Shown here piece by piece: positions 29,230-52,396 of a DNA stretch of 64,000 nucleotides. Every line of letters begins with the position of its first letter. Positions within the stretch are counted from its first letter, which is position 1. Under the pieces are notes generated by a model that was not told the DNA's origin, searched no databases, and saw only the letters and a list, made by a program, of their open reading frames with translations. The translations under genes and the position numbers were made by a program. The stretch is from positions 32,001-96,000 of IMG/VR virus record IMGVR_UViG_3300025598_000023. One strand, 5' to 3'. Source of the stretch: a virus.

Positions 29230-29428
29230 AGCGTGGTGGGATGAGTTTGAACGTGAACTTGCTACTATGGTTAAACCAAATGATCCAAATCCACCGCCAA
29301 AACCAAGTATGGAACCACCTAGACTACCTTCTTGGAAACGTGGCAACACATATTACACATTGGCAAATGACCGCCAGTTTCCTGTAGAACCCGAACACCC
29401 TAACGCCGTAGGCTGGAATTATGACTGA
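29198..29428 (+). CDS. Small Pro-rich hypothetical protein
   Basis: 76-aa ORF that fills the gap and overlaps both neighbours. Confidence 0.5.
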   Translation: MNMDISEQEIKAWWDEFERELATMVKPNDPNPPPKPSMEPPRLPSWKRGNTYYTLANDRQFPVEPEHPNAVGWNYD

Positions 29429-34140: not shown

Positions 34141-35419
34141 TTATAACGGTAAAGAACCAATCAAGATTGAAGTTGACCAATTAAGTAATAAGCACAAAGA
34201 GCTTATTTTTGAAAATAAAACATTTTGCATGTATCCGTGGATTCATCTACATGCCTTTCCAACTGGTGAAGCATATCCTTGTTGTAATACAGAGATGAGT
34301 GAAACTGTTGGTAATACACGTTATGATACTCTTGAAGAAATATGGCATAGCGCACCTATGCGTGATATTCGTAGTAAAATGCTTGCTGGTGAACATGTAA
34401 AAGGTTGCAACCGTTGTTATGAACAAGAACAAAACGGTTTCTTTAGTATGCGTATGAGTGCCAATAAACATTTTGGGCATCATATTACTTTAACTGACAA
34501 TCCTACACCACCAATGAAAATGATTTATTGGGATATCAGATTTTCTAACTTATGTAACTTAAAATGTCGTAGTTGTGGTCATATCTTTAGTAGTAACTGG
34601 TATGATGATCAGGTTAAGTTATTAGAATTAGAACAAGCTACTGCTGAAAGTTGGAAAACAAGAAATACAAGAATAAATTTTGCTGGAAAAACCGAAGATG
34701 ATATTTGGGAACAGCTAGAACCACAGATTGATAATCTTGAACAAGTATATTTTGCTGGTGGTGAACCACTTATTATGGAAGAACATTATCGTCTTCTCAA
34801 TGAACTGATTAAACGTGGTCGTAGTGATGTACGATTAATTTATAATACTAATTTTAGTCAGCTTACTTACAAGAAAACAAATGTGTTAGAATTGTGGCGT
34901 GAGTTTAATAGTGTCAGTGTTGGAGCAAGTCTTGATGCTATGGGTGCTCATGCTGAATATATTCGCAAAGGAACCAAGTGGTCGCAAGTTGAACAAAATC
35001 GTGAGCAAATGTTAAAGATTTGTCCTAATGTAGATTTTTACATAAGTCCTACCCTAAGCATTATGAACGCTCTGCACTTGCCTAAATTTCATCGTGAATG
35101 GGTGAATCGTGGCTTTTTAAAACCACAGGATTTAAATATTAATATACTACAAGACCCACCACATTATCGTATTGACGCATTGCCATTCCAGTATAAAGTA
35201 GATATACAAGAATTATATCTAGAGCATATTAAATGGTTAAAACCTCAAGATAAATTAACTCGTGCAACAATTGGTTTTGAAAGTGCAATTAACTTTATGA
35301 TGGCAGATGATAAATCAGATTTGTTGCCAAAATTTATTCAAAAAACCGCGCAACTAGATAAAATAAGAAATGAAAATATATTAGATGCAATTCCAGAGTT
35401 AGGGTATTTGTATGAATAA
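34130..35419 (+). CDS. Radical SAM protein with N-terminal twitch domain (4)
   Basis: CMYPW..PCC..CNRC; CNLKCRSC; AGGEP; YNTN; likely GTG start 34130. Confidence 0.9.
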   Translation: MAYNYNGKEPIKIEVDQLSNKHKELIFENKTFCMYPWIHLHAFPTGEAYPCCNTEMSETVGNTRYDTLEEIWHSAPMRDIRSKMLAGEHVKGCNRCYEQEQNGFFSMRMSANKHFGHHITLTDNPTPPMKMIYWDIRFSNLCNLKCRSCGHIFSSNWYDDQVKLLELEQATAESWKTRNTRINFAGKTEDDIWEQLEPQIDNLEQVYFAGGEPLIMEEHYRLLNELIKRGRSDVRLIYNTNFSQLTYKKTNVLELWREFNSVSVGASLDAMGAHAEYIRKGTKWSQVEQNREQMLKICPNVDFYISPTLSIMNALHLPKFHREWVNRGFLKPQDLNINILQDPPHYRIDALPFQYKVDIQELYLEHIKWLKPQDKLTRATIGFESAINFMMADDKSDLLPKFIQKTAQLDKIRNENILDAIPELGYLYE

Positions 35420-36611
35420 TATTTGTATATTGCCTTGGATTAGTATAGAAACAACACCACTTGGACAAATGCGAGTTTGTTGTTTAGCAAATGAAAATAT
35501 TAAAGATACGAATGGCAAAGATTTGCTCATTGAAAACACAACACTATCATCTGCTTTTGTAAGTGAATATATGAATGATCTTCGTAAGTCTTTTATAAAT
35601 GGTGAAAAACCATCTGTGTGCAATCGTTGTTGGAGCGAAGAAGAAAGTGGACGAACTAGTAAGCGACAAAATAGTTACAATCGTCTTGGTAATCTTGTAA
35701 AGCATATTGATTTTAGTAATCCAAATAGTGGTGATTTAATATTTCTTGATTTAAAATTAGGAAACATTTGTAATCTTAAATGCAGAATTTGTGGTAGTTT
35801 TAGTAGTTCAAAGTGGGCGCAAGAAGAAATAGAAATTAATAAAGAATATCTTACTGAATATCATAGACCAGCAAAAGAGTTCTTAAGACAAGGACAATGG
35901 CCTCGACAAGTTTCTGCTTTTTGGAATGATTTAGATGTTTTGCTGCCACACATCCGCTATTTGGAATTTACAGGTGGTGAACCATTTTTAATCACCGAAC
36001 ATTTTGACTTTTTGCGTCAAGCTATAAATCTTGGTGTTGCAAAAAATATTGAAATTCATTATAACACTAATGGAACACAGTTTCCTGAAGATGCAATAGA
36101 TATATGGAAACAATTTAAACTTGTAGAAATCGCACTTAGCATTGATGATATGGGTGCAAGATTTGAATATCAACGTTATGGTGCTAAGTGGGATATTGTT
36201 GAAAAAAATTTAAAAAACTTTAGAGACTTGCGAGATAAAAATAAGAATATTGTGCTACAATTATGTTTAACTGTAAACGCATTAAATTTTTATTATATAG
36301 ATGAAATATTAAATTGGGTTCCGCATCAAATGTTTAATTACCATTATCTTAATGTAGTTCATGATCCACCACATTTTTGTATTAAGAACCTTAATGATGA
36401 TGCAAAAGAAATGATAACAAGAAAAATTTCTCAAGCAAATATTCCATCTATATTTGTTGATGAAATTAAAAATTTATTGCAATTTATGAATAGTGGAACT
36501 GGCACAGATTGTTCATATCTGATACAAGTATTACGTGATAGTGATAAATTTCGCAAACAACATCTTGCAGATCATCATCCAGAGTTGGCGGCAGCGATTG
36601 GTTATGAATGA
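35412..36611 (+). CDS. Radical SAM protein with N-terminal twitch domain (5)
   Basis: CILPW..VCC..CNRC; CNLKCRIC; TGGEP; YNTNG. Confidence 0.9.
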   Translation: MNNICILPWISIETTPLGQMRVCCLANENIKDTNGKDLLIENTTLSSAFVSEYMNDLRKSFINGEKPSVCNRCWSEEESGRTSKRQNSYNRLGNLVKHIDFSNPNSGDLIFLDLKLGNICNLKCRICGSFSSSKWAQEEIEINKEYLTEYHRPAKEFLRQGQWPRQVSAFWNDLDVLLPHIRYLEFTGGEPFLITEHFDFLRQAINLGVAKNIEIHYNTNGTQFPEDAIDIWKQFKLVEIALSIDDMGARFEYQRYGAKWDIVEKNLKNFRDLRDKNKNIVLQLCLTVNALNFYYIDEILNWVPHQMFNYHYLNVVHDPPHFCIKNLNDDAKEMITRKISQANIPSIFVDEIKNLLQFMNSGTGTDCSYLIQVLRDSDKFRKQHLADHHPELAAAIGYE

Positions 36612-37908
36612 TTTTTGTGTAGCACCGTGGACACATACATATATCTCACCTCAAGGTGAACGCCGTTTATGCTGTGCATCACGTGAACCTGCACAGAACT
36701 TTAAACAATATATTGATACCGCTGGTGGTAATGGACAATTTAATCCGCTTACATTAAAGGAATGGTGGAATGGTGAACATATTAGGGAAATTAGAAAACA
36801 ATGGTTGTCTGGTGAAGTTCCTTCTGCATGTGAAGTCTGTGATAAGAAGTTACTTAATACCTCTGTTTATCGCGATTACTTTGGTCACTTGTTTGGTCAT
36901 ATTAGATCAGATATACAAGCTAATACTGATGCTGATGGTTATACAACTTTAGAACCAATCTCATGGGACTATCGTTATAGTAATGTATGCAACTTCAAAT
37001 GTCGCATGTGTGGCGATATGTTAAGCAGCGCGTGGGAAGTTGAAGTTCGCAAAAATTCTATGGTTGATTTGTCTAATCCAAAGAATTATTGGATGCAACC
37101 AAAGAACCGCCATGCTATCCGTGATTTTACTCGTGATGTTGTAATACCAGAATTTAAACAAGCCATTGAAAACAAAAGTGTGCGCGAAATTTACTGGGTA
37201 GGTGGCGAACCACTACTTTATGATGAGCACTGGACATTCATGCGCCGTATAATTGAATTGGGGTATGCAGATCAAGTTCGTGTGCGATATAATACTAATT
37301 TAAGTTATTGCAAAGATTCGCAAGGAACACTTTGGGATTTATTGCAACACTTTCCGCATTGGGAAATATGTGCAAGTTTAGATGGAACAGGAGCGATTGG
37401 TGAATATATTAGAACTGGCCTTGACTATGATATGTTTTTACAAAATTTTAGACACGGTGTTGAACAATCAAAACATCCTCGTCAGATGCGTATCGACTTT
37501 ACTCTTACTACCCCTGGGTTATTTGATTTGGAAAATATCATCGCTCTTGCTGATGAACTGAATGTTGAATTATTAAGTAAGGTAGTATTTGCTTTCTCGC
37601 CTGACATACTAATAAGCCCCTTGGCACTACCTAGAATGGTGCTAGAACCACTTTTAGATGGTATACAGAAGCGTATTAAACCGCTCATTACTCGTCGCAC
37701 ACAAAGTTTATGGGATGTTCTAGAACATCTTAAAACTCGTCCTACATTTGCAGAACAGTTTTCTGATACCTATAAACGTGAGGCAATTCGTGGTAAAACG
37801 CATCTTTTAAAATTGGAATCTATTCGCAAAGATGCTAAAATAAAAATGGAAGATATTCTATCAAGTGAACCAACTGTTCTATCATGGTGGAATTCTATTG
37901 GTGAATAA
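36604..37908 (+). CDS. Radical SAM protein with N-terminal twitch domain (6)
   Basis: CVAPW..LCC..CEVC; CNFKCRMC; VGGEP; start moved to ATG 36604. Confidence 0.9.
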   Translation: MNDFCVAPWTHTYISPQGERRLCCASREPAQNFKQYIDTAGGNGQFNPLTLKEWWNGEHIREIRKQWLSGEVPSACEVCDKKLLNTSVYRDYFGHLFGHIRSDIQANTDADGYTTLEPISWDYRYSNVCNFKCRMCGDMLSSAWEVEVRKNSMVDLSNPKNYWMQPKNRHAIRDFTRDVVIPEFKQAIENKSVREIYWVGGEPLLYDEHWTFMRRIIELGYADQVRVRYNTNLSYCKDSQGTLWDLLQHFPHWEICASLDGTGAIGEYIRTGLDYDMFLQNFRHGVEQSKHPRQMRIDFTLTTPGLFDLENIIALADELNVELLSKVVFAFSPDILISPLALPRMVLEPLLDGIQKRIKPLITRRTQSLWDVLEHLKTRPTFAEQFSDTYKREAIRGKTHLLKLESIRKDAKIKMEDILSSEPTVLSWWNSIGE

Positions 37909-38122: not shown

Positions 38123-39228
38123 TGACTGTTATAATGACCCTTCGCAATCCTTTAAATAAAGAAGATTTATTGCCTGTAATTATTGAACCTAATGAAACAC
38201 AGTTAGCAGTAGATTGGATGGCTGCATTAAAAGTAGAACTACAGCGCAATAGTATTTTAGAAAAGAATTATTGTTGGCACGGTTGGCCAAATGGCGCAAG
38301 AAACCTAGAGTATCTTACTAGTGAATTAAGTCGTCATGCGTTAAACATTTGGAAGTATAATGAACTCGGCATATGGCAAAGTGCTGGTTTAGCTAATATA
38401 AAAATTGAAACTGTTTATACACCAGAAACAGTTATGTTGCCATTAACTGAAGTAAAAAACAGTGGTGGTCCAAATCATGATGTTATGAATATCGTGCATA
38501 ATTACTTTGAACATTTACAAGGCACGGTTGAAAATTTAAGTCCATATTACAAACTAGCTCCACCAAATATCAAATATAGTATAAGACAACTAAACAATCT
38601 TTGCCATGAAATTGAAACACTATGTTTAAGTTTGCGAAAGCAGAAACATAATCCAGATTGGGTTCGTCCAAGCCAAATAACAACATTTCTGAATACCGTT
38701 CGTTATAATTTAACAGATGAACATCGCAATGGGTTTATAACTAATGGTTATGACCGTAAATTTGCTCATGTTTATATGCATTGGACACAAATTGGTAAAA
38801 CGCTAATGGAGGTATTCCGTGATGAAGGTGCTCCCATTTTAGATCAAGCTACATGCGATGCCATCACACATTTGCAATATTACAGTGGAGAGTTTGATAT
38901 TGAGTGGGGTCGTGATGTTTGTTATGGAAAACATGATTGGCATACACGCGAGATTGATGCTTTTAATAAATGGTTGCGGCGTGAAGGTTACAATCCAACT
39001 GATACATCACTAAGTCTTGGTTATCTGGAACTTGGTTCTATAAATTTAGAAAAAAGTTTTGGAACAACTGATATTACAAAGATTTGGGATATAATGGGTA
39101 ACTATCTTGACATATATAGTCTTGAAGTTGATGGACAAACCGCTGTTTACGATTACATTTGGAGTGATGAAGATCACGAACAACGCCAAATTAATTATTT
39201 GATGCCTGGTTACAATAGTCATGTTTGA
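38122..39228 (+). CDS. Hypothetical protein (368 aa) in modification operon
   Basis: Long coupled ORF with His/acidic motifs (HNYFEH, NNLCHEIE, HVYMHW); family not recognised. Confidence 0.75.
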   Translation: MTVIMTLRNPLNKEDLLPVIIEPNETQLAVDWMAALKVELQRNSILEKNYCWHGWPNGARNLEYLTSELSRHALNIWKYNELGIWQSAGLANIKIETVYTPETVMLPLTEVKNSGGPNHDVMNIVHNYFEHLQGTVENLSPYYKLAPPNIKYSIRQLNNLCHEIETLCLSLRKQKHNPDWVRPSQITTFLNTVRYNLTDEHRNGFITNGYDRKFAHVYMHWTQIGKTLMEVFRDEGAPILDQATCDAITHLQYYSGEFDIEWGRDVCYGKHDWHTREIDAFNKWLRREGYNPTDTSLSLGYLELGSINLEKSFGTTDITKIWDIMGNYLDIYSLEVDGQTAVYDYIWSDEDHEQRQINYLMPGYNSHV

Positions 39229-42127
39229 TACCTATTGGTATGATTATGCAGATTGCAATGATATTAAAGAATTAATTGCCAAAGCAATTGCTTCCAGTCG
39301 CACCGAATATATTTGGCTGCGTCATCGTGCAGTAGATTATACTAATTTTAATTTACGATTTATTCCACCGCGACATCAATCAAACATGTTGCATGCTTGG
39401 GCAAGTCATGATAATCCAAAATGTTACACAACGTGGTTAATACCAATTGAAAATTATGGTGAGATATTTTATCACGATGGTATATTACCTATTGTACAAC
39501 AACCAACTTGGACAACAAGCGAACAAGTATTATATGATGGTTTTAATTTTAATTGGTACCCTGATGTATGGGATTGGGATAAACAACATCACTTTGCAAT
39601 GGATGGCACTACTCAATTATCTTACACAAGTGTAGGAAATGGCAATGAAGTAAAATATCATATTAGCAACTTGCGTTTTAAATCTATAGGTGTTTGGTAT
39701 GATACAGATATTATAGATGATTCACCTTATGAATGGAATTGGATTGCAGATAATCGTATTGACTATACCGATTTTAATTGGAACTGGTTGCCTGATAGAT
39801 GGGATGCAGATAAAATACATGAATTTTGTATGTGGGGCGCGGAACAATTATCTTATACACGATTAATGCGTCGAAATTGTAAAAAAGAAAAAGTCTATCA
39901 CTCCTCATATCTTACTTTTAAGAATATTCCTAAATTGCATCAATTAGAATCTATAGATAGCGAGTGGATTTGGATTATTGACGAGCGTATAGATTATAGC
40001 AACTTTAATTTTAATTGGTTGCCGCCAGCGTGGGATATTAACAAAACACATGCGTTTGTCATGAGTGGCACAACACAACTTGCCTATACTTTTTTACACA
40101 ATACAAAGCATGCAAGCAAACAAATAAAGTATCATATAACAGATTTAAAATTTGATGCTACAAAACAAAATGATGAATGGGTTTGGGAAACAGATGAACG
40201 CATAGATTATAGTCATTTTGATTTTGATTGGTTACCAGATGCATGGGATGCAAATAAAACTCATGCTTTTGCTATGCATGGAACCGAACAGTTGTGCTAT
40301 ACTTTTTTACGCAATACAAAAGTTGAAAGTGTTGAAACAAAATATCATAAAACAGATTTGCGATTCAAAAGTGATATTGAAAATGATGAATGGGTTTGGA
40401 TTAAAGACGATAGAATAGATTATAGTGATTTTGATTTTGATTGGTTACCTGATGCGTGGGATGCCGATAAAACACACGTATTTTGTATGGCTGGCACAAA
40501 ACATCTAGGATATACTAAACTTATAAACACCAATATTAAAAATCCCAAAATAATTTATCACAGCAGTAATTTAAAATTTTTACCACAAGTGCGTCCAGTC
40601 ATTTATTGGCAAGATTACACTAATAGTTTTAATTTAGAAACGTTTAAATCATTAGCAATGGGAAGTGAATGGACATGGATTGCTGATCGTCGCATTGATT
40701 ATAGCGATTGGGACTTTGATTGGTTACCTGATGGATGGGATACGAATTATATTCATTGTTTTACAATGAAAGACAAAGAACAATTAAGTTATACTATTCT
40801 TATTCACAGAGATGCAATTACAAATTTCGTAGATTACAAATATCACACAGCACAGCTACAGTTCAATGATACACATGCTGACATGTGTTTAATTAACACG
40901 AACTCATTTGATAATACTATTACGCAAGACTTTCAAGTTCGTTTAATTACAACAATGGAAGAAGCAATCAAAGCTGCTGTTGCAAAAAGTAAACGTGAAT
41001 GGTTATGGCTTTATAGTGATTGTTGTGAATATGATGGTTTTGATTGGTCATGGTTGCCAGACCTTGATCAACGTGAACAAGTGCATTGTTGGCCAAGTGG
41101 AACTTGTGAAAAAGGCGATACATTTTTAATACACGTTCCAAGTTTTAATCCTAATAAAATTAAGTATAATTTTGAACATAGTGCAGTTATCAGAAAAAAA
41201 TGGACACTTGTCAATTATAAAGAGGACAATTTAGCCCAAGCCTTACAATACAAAAGCAGTGCAATATACACTATTTTTTGCAAGGAGACTATAGGTAATA
41301 TTCCTGATGTTTGTTTATGGGATAAGCGACCTATAATATCTTTAAACAATTCCAATAGTTCAAGTTTAGTGCCTCGTGATTGTATAGTAAAAAAAGAAAT
41401 ATACGAGTATCCGCATCTTATGAAAATATCAGAAGATATAAAAACACAATATGATATTGTTTTTATAAGTTATGACGAAGTTCAAGCAGATGAAAATTAT
41501 GTTAAATTATTAGAATCATATCCACATGCCAAACGAGTGCATGGTGTAGAAGGAATGGAAAATGCATTGGCTGCTGCAGCTAAATGTAGCAATACTGACT
41601 ATTTTTATGCTGTTTTTGCTAAAACAAAATTATATGAAAGTTGGGATTTTACAACCGAACCAGATTACTGGCGTGATCCTCGCAACTATATCTTTTATGC
41701 TATTAATACATCAAATGATTTGGTATACGGTGAAATGGGAATTGTTTTGTATAACAAAAAATTCTTACTTACTGCGCCATCTTACGATGAATTAGGAATA
41801 GATTTTACTATGAGTTTTCCAGTTCAGGTAATTCCACAAATTAGTGCCTATGGAGAATTTGCCACTGACCCTTATCGTGCATGGAGAACTGCTTTTCGTG
41901 AAACATGTAAGTTAGCATACTTTAATAGCCAAAAATCATGCATTGAAACTCAATATCGTATTAACCAATGGAAAACTTATGCTCATGGTGAACATGCAGA
42001 AGACGTTTTAAGAGGTGCCAATGATGGATATCAATATTTTATTGAAAATAGTGACGATTTGTCAGCACTTAAGAAAACATTTCGTTGGGATTGGCTCAAG
42101 AATTATTATAATTCCAAATACAACTAA
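39221..42127 (+). CDS. Repeat-rich protein with C-terminal glycosyltransferase-like domain
   Basis: Six strong ~70-aa WxWxxDxRIDYxxFxFxWLPDxWD repeats plus degenerate copies; C-terminal IVFISYDE..KRVHGVEG..AWRTAFRETCKL paralogous to 29421-30359. Confidence 0.75.
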   Translation: MFDTYWYDYADCNDIKELIAKAIASSRTEYIWLRHRAVDYTNFNLRFIPPRHQSNMLHAWASHDNPKCYTTWLIPIENYGEIFYHDGILPIVQQPTWTTSEQVLYDGFNFNWYPDVWDWDKQHHFAMDGTTQLSYTSVGNGNEVKYHISNLRFKSIGVWYDTDIIDDSPYEWNWIADNRIDYTDFNWNWLPDRWDADKIHEFCMWGAEQLSYTRLMRRNCKKEKVYHSSYLTFKNIPKLHQLESIDSEWIWIIDERIDYSNFNFNWLPPAWDINKTHAFVMSGTTQLAYTFLHNTKHASKQIKYHITDLKFDATKQNDEWVWETDERIDYSHFDFDWLPDAWDANKTHAFAMHGTEQLCYTFLRNTKVESVETKYHKTDLRFKSDIENDEWVWIKDDRIDYSDFDFDWLPDAWDADKTHVFCMAGTKHLGYTKLINTNIKNPKIIYHSSNLKFLPQVRPVIYWQDYTNSFNLETFKSLAMGSEWTWIADRRIDYSDWDFDWLPDGWDTNYIHCFTMKDKEQLSYTILIHRDAITNFVDYKYHTAQLQFNDTHADMCLINTNSFDNTITQDFQVRLITTMEEAIKAAVAKSKREWLWLYSDCCEYDGFDWSWLPDLDQREQVHCWPSGTCEKGDTFLIHVPSFNPNKIKYNFEHSAVIRKKWTLVNYKEDNLAQALQYKSSAIYTIFCKETIGNIPDVCLWDKRPIISLNNSNSSSLVPRDCIVKKEIYEYPHLMKISEDIKTQYDIVFISYDEVQADENYVKLLESYPHAKRVHGVEGMENALAAAAKCSNTDYFYAVFAKTKLYESWDFTTEPDYWRDPRNYIFYAINTSNDLVYGEMGIVLYNKKFLLTAPSYDELGIDFTMSFPVQVIPQISAYGEFATDPYRAWRTAFRETCKLAYFNSQKSCIETQYRINQWKTYAHGEHAEDVLRGANDGYQYFIENSDDLSALKKTFRWDWLKNYYNSKYN
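39501..40864 (+). repeat. Intragenic tandem repeat, ~210-280 bp units
   Basis: TGATGAATGGGTTTGG..GATTATAGT.ATTTTGATTTTGATTGGTTACC at 40171 and 40384 (213 bp apart); six protein-level units. Confidence 0.85.
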
Positions 42128-43175
42128 CAATATATTCAAGTTCACTTTGTTTAAGTTGCGCAAAAACTGGCAAACTCAAACAAGTGGCTGCTAATTCTTC
42201 ACTACTTGGCAATTGTAATAAACTTTTATAAACTGGTTGCTGATGTAATGCTAAAGGAAATTGTAGTCCAGTTTCAATTCCATGTTCTGCTAGATACTGA
42301 CGTAAAACATCTCTGCTAGGTGAAACAATTACAAATTGATTCCATACATGATCGCTATACGGATTGGTAAGAGGTAATATAATTCCGCTGCCTGCAAGAT
42401 TTTCCAAATAATATCTTGCATTAATATCACGTTGTTTATTCCACTTTTTAAGAAATGGAATTTTTGCAGTAACTATTGCTGCTTGCATAGCATCAAGCCG
42501 TTCATTGTATCCAATGCCAGTATGAATATACTTTTCTGTTCGAGCATGGTCTCTGTAGTATCTAATCTTTTCGCATACCTCAACGGAGCCAGTAACAGCG
42601 CCAGCGTCTCCCATTGCACTTAAATTTTTACCAGGATAAAAACTATAACAAGTTGCATATACAAAATCATTGACATCAACTAGAGTGTTATAACATACTG
42701 CGCTTTGTGCTGCATCACGAATAAGCGGAATACCAACGCTTACGCTGCGCAGTTTTTCAATATCAATAGTTTGCCCATATAAATCAACAAATATTATAGC
42801 TTTTGTTTTTTCTGTAATTGCTGTGGCAACAGCATCAATATTAATTGTATAGTATTGATCTATATCAACAAAGATTGGAGTAGCACCAAGTTGGCTTACG
42901 ACTTCTGCGGTGCTCATAAAACTCATTGCTGGCACAATTACTTCATCGCCGCTGCCAATCCCCAAACTCAACAAAGATAAAAATAGTGCACTTGTTCCAC
43001 TGCTGGTTCCAGCACAATCTTTATTATCGGTATAATTTGCCCATGCAACTTCAAATTGTTTAACTGCATCTCCGCCAATAAAATTACTATTGGCAATACA
43101 ATTTCTTATAGCATTATCTATTTCATATTGACATTCTTTATATTCTGCATACAAGTTTGCATATGGTATTTTCAT
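42096..43175 (-). CDS. DegT/DnrJ/EryC1/StrS sugar aminotransferase, DesV/FdtB-like (C3)
   Basis: MKIPYANL..SGTSAL..GDEVIVP..DAAQS..SFYPGKNLSAMGDAGAV..NERLDAMQAA..LSLP; ATGA overlap with the DesII-like stop. Confidence 0.88.
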   Translation of the reverse strand: MKIPYANLYAEYKECQYEIDNAIRNCIANSNFIGGDAVKQFEVAWANYTDNKDCAGTSSGTSALFLSLLSLGIGSGDEVIVPAMSFMSTAEVVSQLGATPIFVDIDQYYTINIDAVATAITEKTKAIIFVDLYGQTIDIEKLRSVSVGIPLIRDAAQSAVCYNTLVDVNDFVYATCYSFYPGKNLSAMGDAGAVTGSVEVCEKIRYYRDHARTEKYIHTGIGYNERLDAMQAAIVTAKIPFLKKWNKQRDINARYYLENLAGSGIILPLTNPYSDHVWNQFVIVSPSRDVLRQYLAEHGIETGLQFPLALHQQPVYKSLLQLPSSEELAATCLSLPVFAQLKQSELEYIVSCIWNYNNS

Positions 43176-44545
43176 CCTCGTATCCTTACTGGTCCAATTG
43201 ACCAATCAATGCCATATTCTGCGTCATCTCGTGCTTGATTGATTAATAAACTTATTACATGGTCAAAAGCATCAAGAAATCCAACATCCTGTGGCAATGC
43301 ACGAATTTTCTTTTTATTGTTTACGAAAACTTTTGTAACTTCTTCAACTGATGAACCTGCGATATTTCCAATAATGTAACGATCACTGCCTGGTCTATCT
43401 AAAAATCCACTTTCGTGATAAACATAAACATTGCCTTTTACATCTACGGCAACTGAAACTTGTGGAAAACTTTCTGGAATAATTTCATCCCAATTAATCA
43501 TCCGCAAACTACCTACATTTTTATTATATTTTAACGGCTCAAGCGCATAACCTAAATCAAAATGGGTAGACCAGTTTTTTTTAAAATCATCAATAAGTTT
43601 GAATATATCCATTAACTCGCCGCGCTCGGCATCACTTATTGTACGAATATTTTGACTAAAATCTTCACGCAGTGTAACAAAATCTATTGGTGTTGCGCAT
43701 TGCTCGTTAATATAATTTATAATTTTTAAGAGTTCTTTAACATCATTTGCATGTCCTGGCAAAATAATCCAGTTTATACCAACTTTTGTTTTGGCAGCAC
43801 GTTTTTTAAATTCAATAATATTATTAATAATATGTGCAAAACTCTGGCGATTCTTTGTAACAGCATAAGCAGTGTCTTCACTAACGCCATATAAACTAAA
43901 TCTAACGGCTTCTAAATCTAACATACCAGGATGTTTATCAAGATAACGAGCAGTCATCATATTACCATTAGTATACAACTGCATATTATATCCACGTTGT
44001 GCACCATGCGTTATTATATCACCAAGGTATGGGTTTGTTAGTGGTTCAAGACCGCCGCTTATGCGAAATCTATCTTGCCAATTAACATCTGTTTGTGGGT
44101 CTTGGTCAATAATTTGATAAAAATAATCACGACCAATTTCTGCATATTTGTTTTCATATTTTGCAACAGGATTGCGTCCACAAAAACCGCAATAAAACAT
44201 ACAACTCAAACCAGTGTATAAACCAATACGATTTGGATACATCCAACGTCTTTCAATAGCAGATTGCAAAGTGTTGGTTTTTAACAATGGCATAATGGTG
44301 TTAGTCCAATATTTTGTTCCTACCCCATTATGCAAAATTCTATGCTGAGCATCATCGCTATTGCGAATTTCCTCATTAATTTTTTTATGATATTCAAGAT
44401 TAAAATTATATAACTTAGCAATGCTTCTTTGACTAATAAAAGGATCATCAGCAAGCATTTGTATAACTTTTTCTGCATCATCAGATAATGCATGATTTTC
44501 TATAATATCAGTTGTGGTATCTTTGTGTTTATAACCAAGTCTCAT
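43172..44545 (-). CDS. desII: DesII-like radical SAM NDP-4-amino-4,6-dideoxyhexose ammonia-lyase
   Basis: YWTNTIMPL, YPNRIGLYTGLSCMFYCGFC, SGGLEPLTNP, YTNG, RFSLYG, IDFVTLREDFS, DLGYAL, PQVSVAVDVKGNVYVYHESGF, RYIIG and FLDAFDHV occur in the same order as the Streptomyces DesII motifs I recall. Confidence 0.85.
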   Translation of the reverse strand: MRLGYKHKDTTTDIIENHALSDDAEKVIQMLADDPFISQRSIAKLYNFNLEYHKKINEEIRNSDDAQHRILHNGVGTKYWTNTIMPLLKTNTLQSAIERRWMYPNRIGLYTGLSCMFYCGFCGRNPVAKYENKYAEIGRDYFYQIIDQDPQTDVNWQDRFRISGGLEPLTNPYLGDIITHGAQRGYNMQLYTNGNMMTARYLDKHPGMLDLEAVRFSLYGVSEDTAYAVTKNRQSFAHIINNIIEFKKRAAKTKVGINWIILPGHANDVKELLKIINYINEQCATPIDFVTLREDFSQNIRTISDAERGELMDIFKLIDDFKKNWSTHFDLGYALEPLKYNKNVGSLRMINWDEIIPESFPQVSVAVDVKGNVYVYHESGFLDRPGSDRYIIGNIAGSSVEEVTKVFVNNKKKIRALPQDVGFLDAFDHVISLLINQARDDAEYGIDWSIGPVRIRG

Positions 44546-45657
44546 TATAATGAATTTATCACAGTTTGTATAACTGTGTCAACTTGTTCATCAGTTAAGT
44601 GCCAGTGACTTGGTAAACTTATAATACGTTCGTTATTAGTAATATATTCTGCATGTGGACACAATTGATAACCATAAGATTTTACAAATGGTTCACGATT
44701 AAGTGGTCTTGAATAATGGCTACTATATTCTATGTCGGCAGCCTTTAATGCTGCCTTGACACTATCTTGACGTAATGGTGCTATGCTAAATGAATAATAA
44801 TTCCATGTTCCCCATTGTTGTCGCAATGGTAAATCTAATGCTTTAGCATAATTTATAAATTCATTATAATAACGTTTGCAAATTGAAAGTTTTCTTGGTA
44901 AATGATCTTCATAGTAAGGAACTTTTGCTACAAGCGTAGACGCTTGTGTTGATAACATACGAAAGTTAAGACCAGGCAATTCTATTTGACCATAAGGACC
45001 ACCTTCAATTTTACCCATTGTGCATGTGCCATTTAATATAGATGGATGAATTGTTTTACTTACGATAGCACCACCGCCACTGCCGCCAAGATTCTTGAGT
45101 GGATTAAAACTTAAACAAATAGCATCAGCAATAGTTTGGTCATATTCGTTTGAACATAATCCAAAACTATGAGCAGCATCAATAATCCATTTTATATTAT
45201 GGTCATCGCACCATTTGCGAACACGGGTTAGATCAACGCCTTGACCATATAAATCAACAGTGATAAGAGTGCTTATTTCTTCACCATACTTGGCATACAT
45301 TTCATCAAGTAGTTCAATATCCAACAACCAACTACTATCAATATCAACAAAGGTTGGGATACAACCTACTGCCATGACTGCTTGTGCAGTAGCTGCATAT
45401 GTTAGTGCTGGCAACAACACTCTACTACCGCACTTTGTATATAGTGCCATAAGTGCAGCTATAAGTGAACTGGTTCCGCTATTAGTAAGTTCAACATGAG
45501 CATTATTATACTTTACACGAATATATCGTGCAACAGCATCGTGTGCATTACCACTATAAAATTGCCCACTTTTAAAAGCAGATTGCATACCACCAAGTAT
45601 GTAACCTTTACAATCTTCGTATTGTTCTTTAAGATTGTAATAATTTATTGATGCCAT
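44545..45657 (-). CDS. DegT/DnrJ/EryC1/StrS sugar aminotransferase (divergent; DesI-role candidate)
   Basis: NSGTSSL..LPALTYAATAQAV..VDLYG..IDAAHSFG..SFNPLKNLGG..ISLP. Confidence 0.85.
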   Translation of the reverse strand: MASINYYNLKEQYEDCKGYILGGMQSAFKSGQFYSGNAHDAVARYIRVKYNNAHVELTNSGTSSLIAALMALYTKCGSRVLLPALTYAATAQAVMAVGCIPTFVDIDSSWLLDIELLDEMYAKYGEEISTLITVDLYGQGVDLTRVRKWCDDHNIKWIIDAAHSFGLCSNEYDQTIADAICLSFNPLKNLGGSGGGAIVSKTIHPSILNGTCTMGKIEGGPYGQIELPGLNFRMLSTQASTLVAKVPYYEDHLPRKLSICKRYYNEFINYAKALDLPLRQQWGTWNYYSFSIAPLRQDSVKAALKAADIEYSSHYSRPLNREPFVKSYGYQLCPHAEYITNNERIISLPSHWHLTDEQVDTVIQTVINSL

Positions 45658-46507
45658 CTTCTAAACTTGTCTTTGGCGTGTAGCCAAGATATTGCACAGC
45701 ACGGCGAGTATCAAGCGCACCACGTTTTGGCATATCAAATGGTATGCCATCACCATATATAATTTTGCTTTGTGTTTTTGTCCAATCTCTTATTACATTG
45801 ATAGCATCTTGTAGTGTTCTTGCGCTTCCATAACTTACATTAGCTATAAAATTATGTGTGTCAAATAGTGCAGCATTTGTGATAGCCTGTGCTACATCTT
45901 CTACATATGTAAAATCTAATGTAGCATGTGGATCATCTACGTGGATTGTTTCTTGATTAAGAGCAGCTTTTATCCATTTAGAGATGACACGATTGCCATC
46001 ATCACGGTTACCATATACAGCAGTAGGACGAATGATTACCCATTTCTGTGCAATAATTCTAACAAGTTCTTCGCACATTTTTTTAGCCCTACCATAATCA
46101 TTGATAGGTTTAAGTGGTGTATCCTCTGCGATAGAGTCTTTCCAGTCACCATATACCATACTGCTGCTTATATAAACCATTTTTGCATTAGGGTATGTTG
46201 TTAATAGATGAATAGTGCTTTGAACTGTATTGCGCCAAGCAGACAAGTTGTCTTTGGAAAAAGTTGCTTGATTTGGTTCACCAGCGAGATGGATAATAAC
46301 ATCGACATCTTGAATAACAGTTTTGCTGCAATCAGCATTGATCCAATCATCATATGCAAATTCCATATAACGACCACGTTCCAAATATAAATCAGTAGTA
46401 ATATATCGTAAATCATCAATAATTGTAACACGATGATTAGCATCTATTAGACGTTTTACAACATGATGACCAATAAATCCAAATCCACCTGTAACTAATA
46501 CATGCAT
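45629..46507 (-). CDS. NAD-dependent NDP-sugar epimerase/dehydratase (extended SDR)
   Basis: MHVLVTGGFGFIG, IIHLAG, ISSSMVYG, YGRAK, RPTAVYG, DFTYVED; start moved to ATG 46507. Confidence 0.88.
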   Translation of the reverse strand: MHVLVTGGFGFIGHHVVKRLIDANHRVTIIDDLRYITTDLYLERGRYMEFAYDDWINADCSKTVIQDVDVIIHLAGEPNQATFSKDNLSAWRNTVQSTIHLLTTYPNAKMVYISSSMVYGDWKDSIAEDTPLKPINDYGRAKKMCEELVRIIAQKWVIIRPTAVYGNRDDGNRVISKWIKAALNQETIHVDDPHATLDFTYVEDVAQAITNAALFDTHNFIANVSYGSARTLQDAINVIRDWTKTQSKIIYGDGIPFDMPKRGALDTRRAVQYLGYTPKTSLEDGINKLLQS

Positions 46508-46508
46508 A

Positions 46509-47351
46509 TTACACCGCCATTTCTGCTTTGATTGTTGAATGAGATTGATAATTTTGTAAAATAATATTATCCATTTTTGCTGTCCAAATATCTGCAACAT
46601 TACTTAAATCTAATGTAGGATATGGATATGGTTCACGACCTAATAATTCTATAACTTGTGGGACATGATTGTTGTAGATATGAACATCGCCAAATGTAAG
46701 AATAAGTTCGCCAACTTCTGCACCAATTGTTTTGGCAATAAGATGTGTGAGTAGAGCATAACTTGCAATATTAAAAGGCACACCCAAAAACAAATCTGCG
46801 CTACGTTGATACATTTGGCAACTTAAAATATTTCTACGAATATAAAACTGCGCAAACATGTGGCAAGGTGGCAGAGCCATCTGATTTAATTCACCTGGAT
46901 TCCATGCAGTAATAATATGGCGGCGACCGTTGGGATCATTCTGCAAACCATCAATAAGATTTTTTAATTGATCTACTTCGACACCATCAGCACTACGCCA
47001 GTGACGCCACTGTACACCATATACACGACCCAGATCGCCATTATAAGAAGAATTTGGAAGCCAATAATCTGCGTTAGCATTTGCAGTCCAGATTGTTTTC
47101 TTGCTTTCATCTCGTGTTCCATATAGAATTTCTGCCAATCTTCTTTCATCACCGCTGCCTTCAATAAACCATAATAGTTCACTAACTACACTTTTCCAAG
47201 CAAGTTTTTTAGTCGTGATTGCTGGAAAACCATCTTGTAAGTTAAACCGTAACTGTTCACCAAATAAACTAATGGTTCCAACACCAGTTCTGTCTATAAC
47301 TTGCGGTCCAGTTAGTATAATTTTTTTACATAATTCATTGTAATTTTGCAC
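46509..47351 (-). CDS. thyA: Thymidylate synthase
   Basis: DRTGVGT, ELLWFI, GRVYGVQWR, MALPPCH, YQRSADLFLGVPFNIASY, DVHIY; likely GTG start 47351. Confidence 0.95.
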   Translation of the reverse strand: MQNYNELCKKIILTGPQVIDRTGVGTISLFGEQLRFNLQDGFPAITTKKLAWKSVVSELLWFIEGSGDERRLAEILYGTRDESKKTIWTANANADYWLPNSSYNGDLGRVYGVQWRHWRSADGVEVDQLKNLIDGLQNDPNGRRHIITAWNPGELNQMALPPCHMFAQFYIRRNILSCQMYQRSADLFLGVPFNIASYALLTHLIAKTIGAEVGELILTFGDVHIYNNHVPQVIELLGREPYPYPTLDLSNVADIWTAKMDNIILQNYQSHSTIKAEMAV

Positions 47352-47838
47352 GACGAGTCCATACTGAAAATATTTTATTCTTTCCATATGATTCATATTG
47401 CATATTGAAAGATTTTAATAACTCTACCACATCTATGCTAACATCGCAATTAAATTCGTCATAAAATGTTGTAAGATATAATTGCTTAAAAAGATGACTT
47501 GTACTTTCAATTAGTTTTGGACCACCAATTATCCATATATCTTTTTTAGGATGTTGTAATTGCAATACTTCTAAACTTTGTTCAATTGCTGCACCTGCTA
47601 TTACATCATGCGCTTTTGGGAAGTTTTCTACGGATTGATTAGTTACTACTGCACAATGACGATCTGGTAGTGGCTTTGGCATTTTTGGGTCTAGCCAAGT
47701 ATTACTACCCATTACAACTACATGACCACGTGTATTGCTACTGAACCACTCCATATCTTGTTTATCATGTGGCCATGGTAGAGTTCCATCTTTGCCCATT
47801 CCACCATTTAAGTCTACTGCAAAGATGGCTTTTATCAT
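47335..47838 (-). CDS. folA: Dihydrofolate reductase
   Basis: AIFAVDLNGGMGKDGTLPW..DMEWF..VVMGSNTW..KPLPDR..WIIGG. Confidence 0.92.
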   Translation of the reverse strand: MIKAIFAVDLNGGMGKDGTLPWPHDKQDMEWFSSNTRGHVVVMGSNTWLDPKMPKPLPDRHCAVVTNQSVENFPKAHDVIAGAAIEQSLEVLQLQHPKKDIWIIGGPKLIESTSHLFKQLYLTTFYDEFNCDVSIDVVELLKSFNMQYESYGKNKIFSVWTRRAKLQ

Positions 47839-50439: not shown

Positions 50440-50467
50440 ATAATACCACATTATTGGGGGTTGTCAA
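50440..50467 (-). promoter_or_regulatory. sigma70-type early promoter
   Basis: TTGACA-N16-TATTAT with extended TG, then ATTATAG and GGAGAA SD. Confidence 0.75.
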
Positions 50468-50478
50468 GCATTATTTTT

Positions 50479-50892
50479 TCAAGAAAAAGCCATTATTTGT
50501 TCGAAAATATTGGTTTTATTTAAATTTAAGTCAATATATCCATTAAAACCAACATAATTTGTTGCAATTTTACTTTGGTTTTCACAATTTATTACTATAT
50601 TTTGCTGTAAATATACTTCATTTATTGGAAACATATCTAATTTAATACTGCAAATTTTAACAAATTTATCAGCAATAATTTTATTGTCTTCAATAATTGT
50701 GTCATTTTTCATATCTTTTCCACTAAAATCTATTTTAATTTTTTTGGGAAGATTTACAAATAAACTTTGTTCTACAAACTTTTCACCCGTGGGATTTATC
50801 ACAATATCATCGCCAATAAATTTTACAGTCATTGTTTTATTTTTGACATAGCCAAATTCAAACAAAAATTTTATTTCTACATTATCAAACAT
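50479..50892 (-). CDS. AT-rich hypothetical protein
   Basis: 137-aa ORF overlapping the end of the B12-radical SAM gene. Confidence 0.6.
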   Translation of the reverse strand: MFDNVEIKFLFEFGYVKNKTMTVKFIGDDIVINPTGEKFVEQSLFVNLPKKIKIDFSGKDMKNDTIIEDNKIIADKFVKICSIKLDMFPINEVYLQQNIVINCENQSKIATNYVGFNGYIDLNLNKTNIFEQIMAFS

Positions 50893-52342: not shown

Positions 52343-52346
52343 TTCT

Positions 52347-52352
52347 TATTTA
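52347..52352 (-). promoter_or_regulatory. TAAATA late-promoter-like motif
   Basis: TAAATA 4 nt before ATG 52342. Confidence 0.5.
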
Positions 52353-52357
52353 CACAC

Positions 52358-52396
52358 TAAAATAGGGGAGAAGTGCTGTGAACACCACCCCCCTAT
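52358..52396 (-). terminator. Probable intrinsic terminator after MoxR gene
   Basis: Minus strand ATAGGGG..CCCCTAT stem followed by TTT. Confidence 0.55.

What the first reader, a model, noticed from the sequence alone, without database searches (positions are those of the whole stretch)
42096..46507. Phage-encoded desosamine-type deoxy-aminosugar pathway built around a full-length DesII homolog
Seen: four coupled genes, SDR - DegT aminotransferase - radical SAM - DegT aminotransferase. The radical SAM carries, in order over its whole length, the motifs I recall from Streptomyces venezuelae DesII (YWxNTxxPL, GLYxGxxCMFxCxFC, SGGLEPLTNP, RxSLYG, DFVxxREDxS, DxGYAL, PQVxVxVD..VYxYxExGF, RYIxG, FxDxFDxV). 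The last gene has the SFYPGKNL signature of DesV/FdtB-type C3 aminotransferases. Known: in desosamine synthesis DesI aminates C4, DesII deaminates to the 3-keto-4,6-dideoxy sugar, and DesV re-aminates C3; DesII is characterised from actinomycete antibiotic clusters. Inference: the phage makes an NDP-3-amino-3,4,6-trideoxyhexose, with gene order following the chemistry, placed directly downstream of thyA/DHFR (dTTP supply). I know of no description of this in a virus.
Basis: partly seen in the sequence, partly recalled or inferred. Interest (0 to 1): 0.93.

Follow-up and report, generated by a model that had tools for sequence, protein, structure and literature searches.

The report
DesII-like sugar cassette in a jumbo phage
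A freshwater jumbo phage carries a true but divergent relative of the antibiotic-pathway radical enzyme DesII, paired with a C3 sugar aminotransferase as a two-gene add-on behind a conserved phage sugar-amination pair, so it probably makes a rare 3-amino-deoxy sugar, though not by a copy of the desosamine pathway.

Summary
Four tightly coupled minus-strand genes (SDR, DegT, radical SAM, DegT) lie at 46507-42096. The radical SAM is a full-length DesII homolog: E 1e-66 to the DesII crystal structure, 328 bits to TIGR04426, with the cluster, SAM and E408/D456-equivalent residues conserved.

- **Radical SAM:** it scores below the DesII equivalog cut-off of 450. It lies in a clade of uncultured sequences (the two with sequenced context are phage-like) outside the actinomycete DesII clade (AU p 0.0002).
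- **SDR:** it lacks the acid residues of 4,6-dehydratases (invariant SSSMVYG) and resembles 4-epimerases.
- **First DegT:** it is not DesI-like. It belongs to a DegT clade seen only in viral or uncultured contigs.
- **Second DegT:** it groups with C3 aminotransferases (QdtB, DesV).

Twenty related phage contigs, including a complete 338-kb genome, carry ThyA-SDR-DegT1 without the radical SAM or DegT2. The nearest relative (85% nt) lacks exactly those two genes. The cassette is therefore a mosaic: a conserved SDR-DegT1 pair plus a DesII/DesV-like plug-in.

The most likely product is an NDP-3-amino-3,4-dideoxy(6-deoxy?) sugar. Substrate, nucleotide carrier and acceptor are unknown. No phage DesII was found in 50,697 phage genomes or in the searched literature.

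The parts
45629..46507 (-). Extended SDR (292 aa from the ATG at 46507). It is epimerase/reductase-like and is not a 4,6-dehydratase.
   Evidence: PF01370 129 bits. No NCBIfam equivalog is reached; TIGR01181 scores 88 against a cut-off of 365. It has TGGFGFIG, SSSMVYG and YGRAK but no Asp/Glu after the catalytic Ser/Thr. The motif is invariant in 27 phage orthologues. Best PDB hits are UDP-GlcA and UDP-hexose 4-epimerases at about 90 bits.
44545..45657 (-). DegT-1, a PLP sugar aminotransferase of a DegT clade seen only in viral or uncultured contigs. Its regiochemistry is unknown.
   Evidence: PF01041 177 bits. The SFNPLK lysine and DAAHS motif are present. All PDB hits score 109 bits or less, with DesI at 53. 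Its family has about 75 clusters at 37-91% identity, many on 200-355 kb contigs, then identity drops to 27% or less. It forms a clade with 99* support on the DegT tree. It is paired with the SDR in 20 viral contigs.
43172..44545 (-). DesII-like radical SAM enzyme (457 aa).
   Evidence: TIGR04426 327.9 bits, E 1e-97, cut-off 450. PDB 8HZV DesII E 1e-66. Conserved residues: C115/C119/C122, GGLE, R215/S217/Y219, E378 (DesII E408) and D425 (DesII D456). It sits in a 13-row clade of uncultured sequences (99* support) separate from the actinomycete DesII clade.
42096..43175 (-). DegT-2, a QdtB/DesV-like sugar C3 aminotransferase. Its ATG at 43175 overlaps the rSAM stop codon.
   Evidence: PF01041 286 bits. 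PDB scores: QdtB 247.5, DesV 222, WlaRG 195, WbpE 184; against ArnB 114-128, Per 111 and DesI 81. It carries the SFYPGK lysine motif. It is 61% identical to the only DegT next to the rSAM in L002. It scores about 220 bits to the actinomycete DegT copies labelled DesV-like here (by their higher score to DegT-2) and about 80 to the copies next to the rSAM, labelled DesI-like.
42096..44542 (-). Two-gene indel (rSAM + DegT-2), absent from the closest relative.
   Evidence: blastn shows L168 collinear with the window at 85.5% nt from 50449 to 44542. Homology resumes only at 41415. L168-L187 have DegT-1 abutting the convergent p968 gene.
46509..47838 (-). ThyA (46509-47396) and DHFR (47335-47838), the conserved upstream backbone genes.
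   Evidence: NF002497 342.5 bits, above cut-off; PF00186 86.5 bits. The same order occurs in L002, L088 and L168-L187.
39221..42127 (+). Convergent 968-aa phage protein of unknown function. Its C-terminal ~240 residues abut the indel and are not alignable with L168 at the DNA level.
   Evidence: No Pfam, NCBIfam or PHROG hit. The ESM Atlas neighbours are all viral hypothetical proteins. blastn shows a gap at 44542-41415.

Best explanation
The block is an NDP-sugar tailoring cassette of an uncultured freshwater jumbo phage, assembled from two modules. Module A is SDR + DegT-1. It is backbone-conserved in this phage group and is inferred to turn a common or 4-keto NDP-sugar into an NDP-amino sugar, most plausibly a 4-amino sugar. 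Module B is the DesII-like radical SAM + DegT-2, a variably present plug-in. In module B the radical SAM enzyme abstracts H from the carbinol carbon next to the amine and eliminates ammonia, as DesII does, giving an NDP-3-keto-4-deoxy sugar. DegT-2, a C3 aminotransferase, then re-aminates it to an NDP-3-amino-3,4-dideoxy sugar; this would be 3,4,6-trideoxy if the precursor is 6-deoxy. Shown here: gene identities, conserved catalytic residues, coupling, modularity and clade placement. Inferred: substrate, regiochemistry of DegT-1, the nucleotide carrier, 6-deoxy status, and that the sugar is afterwards transferred to a phage or host glycan. No N,N-dimethyltransferase was seen in the cassette, so desosamine itself is not predicted.
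For: - The rSAM matches DesII over its full length. E408 and the essential D456 of DesII (mutagenesis in PMC11434129) are conserved as E378 and D425. D425 is invariant and E378 nearly invariant across 16 diverse family members.
- DegT-2 scores with C3 aminotransferases more than 50 bits above any C4 enzyme. It is translationally coupled to the rSAM by an ATGA overlap.
- An rSAM plus DegT-2-type pair recurs in all phage-clade loci (window, L088, L002/L003/L089) and in L090.
- A DegT lies within 3 kb of the rSAM in 4 of 4 phage-clade loci and 42 of 46 actinomycete loci. The figures are 0 of 18 for Pelagibacteraceae and 3 of 75 for other metagenome loci. The phage clade thus shares DesII's aminotransferase context.
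- Module B sits directly after DegT-1 in the window and in L088. It is missing at exactly that point in the 85%-identical L168. That fits an add-on that consumes module A's product.
- A complete relative encodes a bona fide 4,6-dehydratase elsewhere (PF16363 457 bits). A 4-keto-6-deoxy precursor could therefore be phage-made outside the recovered third of this genome.
Against: - The rSAM is below the DesII equivalog cut-off and lies outside the characterised clade. Most of its nearer relatives have no aminotransferase neighbour, and many are fused to GFO_IDH_MocA oxidoreductases. The family's chemistry is therefore not uniform.
- DegT-1 is, if anything, closer to C3-type than to C4-type aminotransferases, so a 4-amino product is an assumption.
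- L002-type phages have SDR-rSAM-DegT2 with no DegT-1 adjacent. A second DegT lies about 20 kb away in one of them but is only 24% identical to DegT-1.
- The SDR is not a dehydratase. No nucleotidyltransferase, 4,6-dehydratase or Pfam-recognisable glycosyltransferase lies in the 111-kb record.
- No biochemical data exist for any member of the phage clade.
Confidence: 0.5

Rival explanations
1. Module B works independently of DegT-1 on a hydroxylated NDP-sugar. The DesII-like enzyme acts as a radical C3 dehydrogenase, as DesII does on TDP-quinovose, or as a 4-dehydratase, as DesII partly does on TDP-fucose. The SDR sets the C4 configuration or reduces a 4-keto group. DegT-2 then makes a 3-amino-3-deoxy or 3-amino-3,4-dideoxy sugar. 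DegT-1 makes a second, separate amino sugar.
For: L002/L003/L089 and L090 have SDR + rSAM + one DegT-2-type gene and no DegT-1. In L002 the order SDR-rSAM-DegT2 would follow this chemistry. DesII's dehydrogenase and partial dehydratase side activities are documented (PMC11434129). The SDR is epimerase/reductase-like. SDR-DegT1 functions without the rSAM in 20 contigs.
Against: Dehydrogenation by DesII is a non-physiological side reaction and consumes SAM stoichiometrically. The E/D pair proposed to handle the 4-ammonium group is retained. In the window and in L088 the rSAM was inserted directly behind DegT-1 and overlaps it (TAATG), which suggests coupled use.
Confidence: 0.25
2. The DesII-like enzyme of this clade does not act on a nucleotide sugar of the desosamine type at all. 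Its substrate might be a cyclitol or aminoglycoside-like compound, a sugar already attached to a glycan or protein, or a nucleoside. The DegT neighbours would serve that other pathway.
For: The clade is distant from characterised DesII. Most family members lack DegT neighbours. DegT enzymes also act on scyllo-inosose and on glucose-6-phosphate (PDB hits 7b0d and NtdA). The region is flanked by six further radical SAM genes of unknown function.
Against: The rSAM aligns with DesII over its whole length, including the N- and C-terminal domains outside the radical SAM core. The best DegT-2 matches are NDP-sugar C3 aminotransferases. The adjacent SDR is of the extended nucleotide-sugar type.
Confidence: 0.12
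3. One reading: a complete, inherited desosamine-type pathway (DesIV-like SDR, DesI, DesII, DesV) fed by ThyA/DHFR-derived dTTP.
For: Gene order SDR-AT-rSAM-AT next to ThyA/DHFR. DesII and DesV similarity.
Against: The SDR lacks dehydratase residues. DegT-1 is not DesI-like. The four genes have different evolutionary histories. ThyA/DHFR adjacency is independent of the rSAM. No RmlA-like gene occurs even in a complete relative.
Confidence: 0.05

Closest known systems
DesII (dTDP-4-amino-4,6-dideoxy-D-glucose ammonia-lyase, Streptomyces venezuelae; PDB 8HZV/8HZY; TIGR04426)
   Same: Three-domain architecture over the full length. It shares CX3CX2C, GGLE, the ribose motif, the beta-6 motif, and the E408 and D456 equivalents. 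It neighbours a C3 aminotransferase and follows an aminotransferase gene.
   Different: About 35% identity. It scores 328 bits against the 450-bit equivalog cut-off. It lies in a separate clade (AU p 0.0002). It is encoded by a phage. The upstream aminotransferase is not DesI-like, and there is no DesIV, DesVI or DesVII context.
QdtB / DesV / FdtB / WlaRG C3 sugar aminotransferases
   Same: DegT-2 gives its best PDB scores to these enzymes (195-248 bits). It has the SFYPGK lysine motif and has the same length.
   Different: It forms its own clade of viral and uncultured sequences, next to but not inside the actinomycete copies labelled DesV-like here. The substrate is unknown.
Two-gene oxidise/dehydrate-then-aminate modules (PglF/PglE, PseB/PseC, ArnA/ArnB)
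   Same: SDR + DegT-1 form an adjacent, overlapping, conserved pair in 20 or more phage contigs.
   Different: The SDR has neither the dehydratase nor the decarboxylase acid residues (SSSMVYG). It is most similar to 4-epimerases. From established knowledge of these families, each has an acidic residue after the catalytic Thr.
Virus-encoded nucleotide-sugar pathways (giant-virus viosamine, bacillosamine and rhamnose pathways; cyanophage LPS gene clusters; mycobacteriophage virion glycosylation). These are cited from my own knowledge, not checked here.
   Same: A virus carries its own sugar-tailoring enzymes, probably to decorate a glycan.
   Different: None of these is known to me to use a DesII-type radical SAM lyase. 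None was found in the searched literature or in 50,697 phage genomes.

Membership tests
DesII equivalog (TIGR04426, EC 4.3.1.30) | Radical SAM CX3CX2C cluster plus the GGE, ribose and beta-6 SAM-binding motifs | tested here: met
   C115/C119/C122, SGGLE, R215-S217-Y219 and REDF align to DesII C141/145/148, G187-E190, R238/S240/Y242 and D323/Y324, with Y replaced by F.
DesII equivalog (TIGR04426, EC 4.3.1.30) | Full-length match to the family profile at or above the curated cut-off (450 bits) | tested here: not met
   327.9 bits, E 1e-97, covering positions 35-460 of 468. The whole-record search gave 327.6 bits.
DesII equivalog (TIGR04426, EC 4.3.1.30) | Active-site acid pair E408 / D456 (D456A is inactive) | tested here: met
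   E378 and D425 align to them. D is invariant and E nearly invariant in alignment A1.
DesII equivalog (TIGR04426, EC 4.3.1.30) | Monophyly with characterised actinomycete DesII | tested here: not met
   The actinomycete clade has 100* support. The window sits in a 99* clade of uncultured sequences, separated from it by several starred branches. The AU test rejects joining the two clades: delta lnL 138, p 0.0002; the group was named after the tree was seen.
DesII equivalog (TIGR04426, EC 4.3.1.30) | Genomic pairing with a DesI-type C4 aminotransferase and a DesV-type C3 aminotransferase | tested here: inconclusive
   The C3-type partner is present (DegT-2). The upstream partner DegT-1 is not DesI-like: TIGR04427 72.6 vs 650 bits, and a separate clade.
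DesII equivalog (TIGR04426, EC 4.3.1.30) | SAM-dependent deamination of TDP-4-amino-4,6-dideoxy-D-glucose | not testable with these tools
   This needs anaerobic enzymology.
C3 sugar aminotransferases (QdtB/DesV type), for DegT-2 | DegT fold, PLP lysine, and closest similarity to characterised C3 enzymes | tested here: met
   PF01041 286 bits. SFYPGK motif present. QdtB 247.5, DesV 222, WlaRG 195 and WbpE 184 bits, against 128 bits or less for C4 enzymes.
DesI (TIGR04427), for DegT-1 | Score above the cut-off, or a place in the DesI clade | tested here: not met
   72.6 bits against a cut-off of 650. PDB DesI 53 bits. On the tree it is a separate clade of viral and uncultured sequences.
NDP-hexose 4,6-dehydratase (RmlB/DesIV/Gmd), for the SDR | Catalytic Thr followed by Asp/Glu (TDE, TSE or TDK), and a family-level score | tested here: not met
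   The motif is SSSMVYG in all 27 orthologues. TIGR01181 scores 88 against 365. The requirement for the acid residue comes from established knowledge of these enzymes.
Extended SDR nucleotide-sugar enzymes | GxxGxxG Rossmann motif, Ser/Thr-Tyr-Lys triad, C-terminal substrate domain | tested here: met
   TGGFGFIG, SSS and YGRAK are present. PF01370 and PF16363 matches cover the whole protein.

The most novel reading that the evidence does not exclude
A clade of DesII-like radical SAM lyases found so far only in viral or uncultured contigs, always paired with a C3 aminotransferase, acts as a mobile two-gene plug-in. It converts the amino sugar made by a conserved jumbo-phage SDR-DegT pair into a rare 3-amino-3,4-dideoxy (or 3,4,6-trideoxy) sugar. 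It sits beside the hypervariable C-terminus of a large virion-type protein and is gained or lost between phages that are 85% identical. It would therefore diversify a phage-made glycan in an arms race. This would be the first radical-SAM deoxysugar step shown in a virus, and an entry point to the uncharacterised DesII-like enzymes of SAR11, Thaumarchaeota and other abundant aquatic microbes.
Probability: 0.35. Interest if true: 0.75.

Novelty: new variant of a known kind. Interest (0 to 1): 0.6.

Why it matters
DesII chemistry, the radical removal of a sugar C4 substituent, has been studied almost only in actinomycete antibiotic clusters.

This analysis shows three things:
- **Distribution.** The family is widespread and mostly uncharacterised outside actinomycetes. 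It occurs in Pelagibacteraceae, Thaumarchaeota, Acidobacteriota and others, and many members are fused to GFO_IDH_MocA oxidoreductases.
- **Phage lineage.** One lineage sits in freshwater jumbo phages and keeps the DesII-like aminotransferase context.
- **Natural comparison.** In those phages it behaves as a presence/absence module between near-identical genomes. That sets up a natural experiment on what a rare amino-deoxy sugar does for a phage.

If the chemistry is confirmed, it would extend radical SAM deoxysugar biosynthesis to viruses. It would also supply new enzymes, small and from low-GC genomes, for glycodiversification work.

Tried and rejected
The contexts of the many close homologs on 100-350 kb contigs (P0049, P0056, P0293 and others) could not be fetched. 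Contexts come only from the search for related loci and the genome search.
- **INPHARED searches.** blastn and tblastn of the cassette and the rSAM against INPHARED phages gave no match.
- **Literature.** Searches for DesII + phage, bacteriophage + radical SAM + aminotransferase + nucleotide sugar, jumbo phage + radical SAM + glycosyltransferase, desosamine + virus, and EC 4.3.1.30 returned nothing relevant.
- **Glycosyltransferase candidates.** An AlphaFold2 single-sequence model of the GT-like ORF 27638-28387 failed (pLDDT 32), so no fold search was run. Pfam at E up to 1 found nothing credible for the GT-like ORFs, p368, p235 or the L002 neighbours. The ESM Atlas gave only a weak GT8/Nucleotid_trans lead for 28384-29229 (0.95, fewer than 170 shared features). 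It gave viral hypotheticals for p968.
- **Missing pathway genes.** No NTP_transferase, second SDR or GT2 was found in the 111-kb record. This is a fragment (33% complete), so absence is not shown for the phage.
- **Expression.** No RNA holder was listed among the sequencing runs. This says nothing about expression.
- **Rejected: cellular contamination or a chimeric contig.** The region is collinear with 20 or more viral contigs and a complete relative with direct terminal repeats. Independent contigs bridge all junctions.
- **Rejected: DNA hypermodification through a ThyA-like hydroxymethylase.** ThyA passes the thymidylate synthase equivalog cut-off and is paired with DHFR.
- **Not run: complex prediction.** No binding claim is made.

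Full report
**Setting**

The window is bases 32001-96000 of a 111,324-bp IMG/VR virus record that CheckV rates 33% complete. Several features mark it as phage:
- a T4-type DNA polymerase, 44-49% identical to those of 350-490 kb jumbo phages such as Atu_ph07, Phosso and fHe-Yen9-04;
- tail-fibre-like proteins;
- a 4665-aa ORF.

The region around the finding is collinear with more than 20 IMG/VR contigs. One of them is a complete 338,435-bp genome with direct terminal repeats. The stretch occurs in at least 12 freshwater metagenome runs. Contigs from runs other than the likely source bridge every gene junction without differences. This is a real freshwater jumbo phage.

**The observation**

Four minus-strand ORFs are present as described. 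Pfam assigns them as follows:

| Gene | Coordinates | Pfam family |
|---|---|---|
| SDR | 46507-45629 | Epimerase |
| DegT-1 | 45657-44545 | DegT_DnrJ_EryC1 |
| radical SAM | 44545-43172 | Radical_SAM |
| DegT-2 | 43175-42096 | DegT_DnrJ_EryC1 |

The genes are packed for co-translation:
- ThyA stop, then one base, then the SDR ATG;
- a TAATG overlap between DegT-1 and the rSAM;
- an ATGA overlap with an upstream GAGG between the rSAM and DegT-2.

ThyA passes the thymidylate synthase equivalog cut-off, and DHFR precedes it.

**The radical SAM enzyme**

It is the only protein here with a specific family signal. TIGR04426 (rSAM_desII) scores 327.9 bits, E 1e-97, over positions 35-460 of 468. The next family scores 40 bits. 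phmmer against the PDB finds only DesII (8HZV, 8HZY) at E 1e-66.

The DesII structure paper (PMC11434129) names the functional residues. All of them align:
- cluster cysteines C141/C145/C148;
- the GGE motif;
- R238/S240/Y242;
- D323/Y324 (Y is replaced by F here);
- the proposed base E408 (E378 here);
- D456, whose alanine mutant is inactive (D425 here).

In an alignment of 16 diverse relatives, D425 is invariant and E378 nearly invariant.

The score is nevertheless below the curated equivalog cut-off of 450. A maximum-likelihood tree of 89 sequences puts all actinomycete sequences in one 100%-supported clade. The window falls in a 99%-supported clade of 13 uncultured sequences. That clade is nested among sequences from Thaumarchaeota, Pelagibacteraceae and other non-actinomycetes. 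An AU test rejects joining the window's clade with the actinomycete clade (delta lnL 138, p 0.0002; the group was chosen after seeing the tree).

The family is small: about 50 clusters at E < 1e-30 among 1.84 billion representatives. Many members are fusions of an N-terminal GFO_IDH_MocA oxidoreductase with the DesII-like domain.

**The two aminotransferases**

DegT-2 scores 248 bits to QdtB, 222 to DesV, 195 to WlaRG and 184 to WbpE. All of these are C3 aminotransferases. It scores 128 bits or less to C4 enzymes: ArnB, perosamine synthase, PglE and DesI (81). Against actinomycete loci it scores about 220 bits to the DegT copies labelled DesV-like here (by their higher score to DegT-2). It scores about 80 bits to the copy directly upstream of DesII, labelled DesI-like. 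It carries the SFYPGK lysine motif. A C3 role is well supported by similarity.

DegT-1 keeps the PLP lysine (SFNPLK) and the DAAHS motif but is divergent:
- it scores 109 bits or less to any solved structure, with DesI at only 53;
- the DesI model gives 72.6 bits against a cut-off of 650;
- its relatives form a closed family of about 75 clusters at 37-91% identity, many on 200-355 kb contigs, after which identity falls to 27% or less;
- on a DegT tree it forms a separate clade of viral and uncultured sequences with 99% support.

Its regiochemistry cannot be read from sequence.

**The SDR**

It is an extended SDR with TGGFGFIG, SSSMVYG and YGRAK, but it reaches no equivalog. dTDP-glucose 4,6-dehydratase scores 88 bits against a cut-off of 365. 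All 27 phage orthologues keep SSSM[V/A]YG. None has the acidic residue that follows the catalytic Thr in RmlB-, Gmd- or PglF-type dehydratases and in UXS/ArnA decarboxylases (established knowledge). The best solved relatives are UDP-glucuronate and UDP-hexose 4-epimerases, at about 90 bits. It is therefore not the DesIV equivalent.

The 111-kb record holds no nucleotidyltransferase, no other SDR and no GT2. The complete relative also lacks PF00483. It does have a second sugar island with a true 4,6-dehydratase (PF16363, 457 bits), a sugar C-methyltransferase (Methyltransf_14) and further SDRs. An equivalent island may lie in the missing two-thirds of this genome.

**Modularity**

This is the main new result.

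- **Backbone without the rSAM.** Twenty viral contigs (L168-L187) share the order AAA ATPase, DUF2201, p235, p101, DHFR, ThyA, SDR, DegT-1. These are followed by the convergent genes p968, p368 and the N-twitch radical SAM genes. None of these contigs has a DesII-like gene or a DegT-2.
- **Complete relative.** The complete 338-kb relative has one DegT only and no TIGR04426 match.
- **Nearest relative.** L168 has a DegT-1 that is 90% identical. It aligns with the window at 85.5% nucleotide identity from 50449 down to 44542, the DegT-1 stop. Homology resumes only at 41415, inside p968. The rSAM + DegT-2 pair (44542-42096) is thus an indel. It lies next to the non-alignable C-terminus of p968.
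- **Same arrangement elsewhere.** L088 (rSAM 85% identical) has the same four-gene order as the window.
- **Arrangement without DegT-1.** L002/L003/L089 (63% identical) have DHFR, ThyA, SDR, rSAM, DegT-2 with no DegT-1. A carbamoyltransferase lies nearby. One of these contigs has another DegT about 20 kb away, but it is only 24% identical to DegT-1.
- **A further variant.** L090 (43% identical) has SDR, a DegT-2-like gene, then the rSAM.

The four genes are therefore a mosaic of two units. One is a backbone SDR-DegT1 pair. The other is an accessory rSAM-DegT2 pair. ThyA/DHFR adjacency is backbone synteny that does not depend on the rSAM.

**Context across the family**

A DegT gene lies within 3 kb of the DesII-like gene in the following shares of loci:

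| Group | Loci with a DegT within 3 kb |
|---|---|
| Actinomycetes | 42 of 46 |
| Phage clade | 4 of 4 |
| Pelagibacteraceae | 0 of 18 |
| Other named bacteria and archaea | 1 of 16 |
| Other metagenome loci | 3 of 75 |

The phage clade is phylogenetically remote from DesII but shares its aminotransferase partnership. Most of its nearer relatives do not.

**Mechanism**

The best-supported reading (about 0.5) has three steps:
1. Module A makes an NDP-amino sugar.
2. The DesII-like enzyme removes that amine by radical elimination and leaves a 3-keto-4-deoxy sugar.
3. DegT-2 installs a C3 amine.

The product would be a 3-amino-3,4-dideoxy sugar, or 3,4,6-trideoxy if the precursor is 6-deoxy. No N,N-dimethyltransferase was seen in the cassette, so desosamine itself is not predicted.

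The main rival (about 0.25) uses DesII's documented side activities, dehydrogenation of TDP-quinovose and partial dehydration of TDP-fucose. Under it, the rSAM acts on a hydroxylated sugar prepared by the SDR. That would explain the L002-type loci without DegT-1.

A non-NDP-sugar substrate (about 0.12) cannot be excluded. The literal desosamine-pathway model with a dehydratase SDR and a dTTP link is contradicted (about 0.05).

The acceptor of the sugar is unknown. GT-like ORFs lie 14-18 kb away but have only a weak language-model lead. Earlier scan notes (e1-6036139, e1-6036147) propose a 20-kb glycan system there. I could not confirm the glycosyltransferases.

**Novelty**

No DesII-like gene was found by tblastn in 50,697 phage records. 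No paper in the library links DesII or desosamine biosynthesis with phages or viruses. Virus-encoded sugar pathways are known in general (my own knowledge). The enzyme family is also known. I therefore rate this a new variant of a known kind, with moderate to high interest.

Noticed in passing
window 30325-37908 (+): Six consecutive radical SAM genes. Five are paralogues of NF033640 (N-terminal twitch domain rSAM, 284-407 bits, above the cut-off of 170) and one is a SPASM rSAM (31718-32785). The last two are conserved in the related phage contigs L168-L187. Their function is unknown.
   Followed up: partly
window 50449-52359 (-): A B12-binding radical SAM gene (50885-52342; PhpK / RiPP C-methyltransferase-like, about 75 bits) and a 137-aa ORF form a second indel. 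The block is absent from both L168 and L088, where the flanks join within about 25 bases.
   Followed up: partly
window 41415-42127 (+), C-terminus of the 968-aa ORF: The last ~240 residues of p968 have no DNA-level homology to the 85%-identical relative L168 and directly abut the rSAM-DegT2 indel. This is a local hypervariable spot, as expected for a receptor-binding or surface protein. p968 homologues range from about 510 to 1345 aa among relatives.
   Followed up: partly
L193 (G004:C1:40000-53000): The complete 338-kb relative has a second sugar island. It holds a true 4,6-dehydratase (PF16363, 457 bits), a Methyltransf_14 sugar C-methyltransferase, two further SDRs and several ORFs without a family.
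   Followed up: partly
L014-L059, L094-L167 and representatives P0127-P0153: DesII-like radical SAM genes are common in Pelagibacteraceae single-cell genomes, a Prochlorococcus SAG, Thaumarchaeota, Acidobacteriota and others, mostly without any DegT neighbour. Many representatives are 750-905-aa fusions with an N-terminal GFO_IDH_MocA oxidoreductase. This is a large uncharacterised branch of the family.
   Followed up: partly
L004 (IMGVR_UViG_3300043399_000788): Another viral contig has ThyA, then two DesII-like paralogues (497 and 412 aa), a convergent DegT, a sulfotransferase and further radical SAM genes.
   Followed up: no
L002 12354-13850 (-): A NodU/CmcH-type carbamoyltransferase (PF02543 + PF16861) lies just beyond the SDR-rSAM-DegT2 genes of the 63%-identical phage lineage. 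This suggests O-carbamoylation of a sugar there.
   Followed up: no
window 7456-21453 (+): A single 4665-aa ORF lies in the structural region, with ORFs of 1130 and at least 1190 aa before it.
   Followed up: no
window 27638-30359 (+): Three ORFs (249, 281 and 312 aa) have DxD-like motifs and no Pfam match. The 281-aa one has a weak ESM Atlas lead to GT8/Nucleotid_trans families. They are candidate glycosyltransferases next to tail-fibre-like genes.
   Followed up: partly
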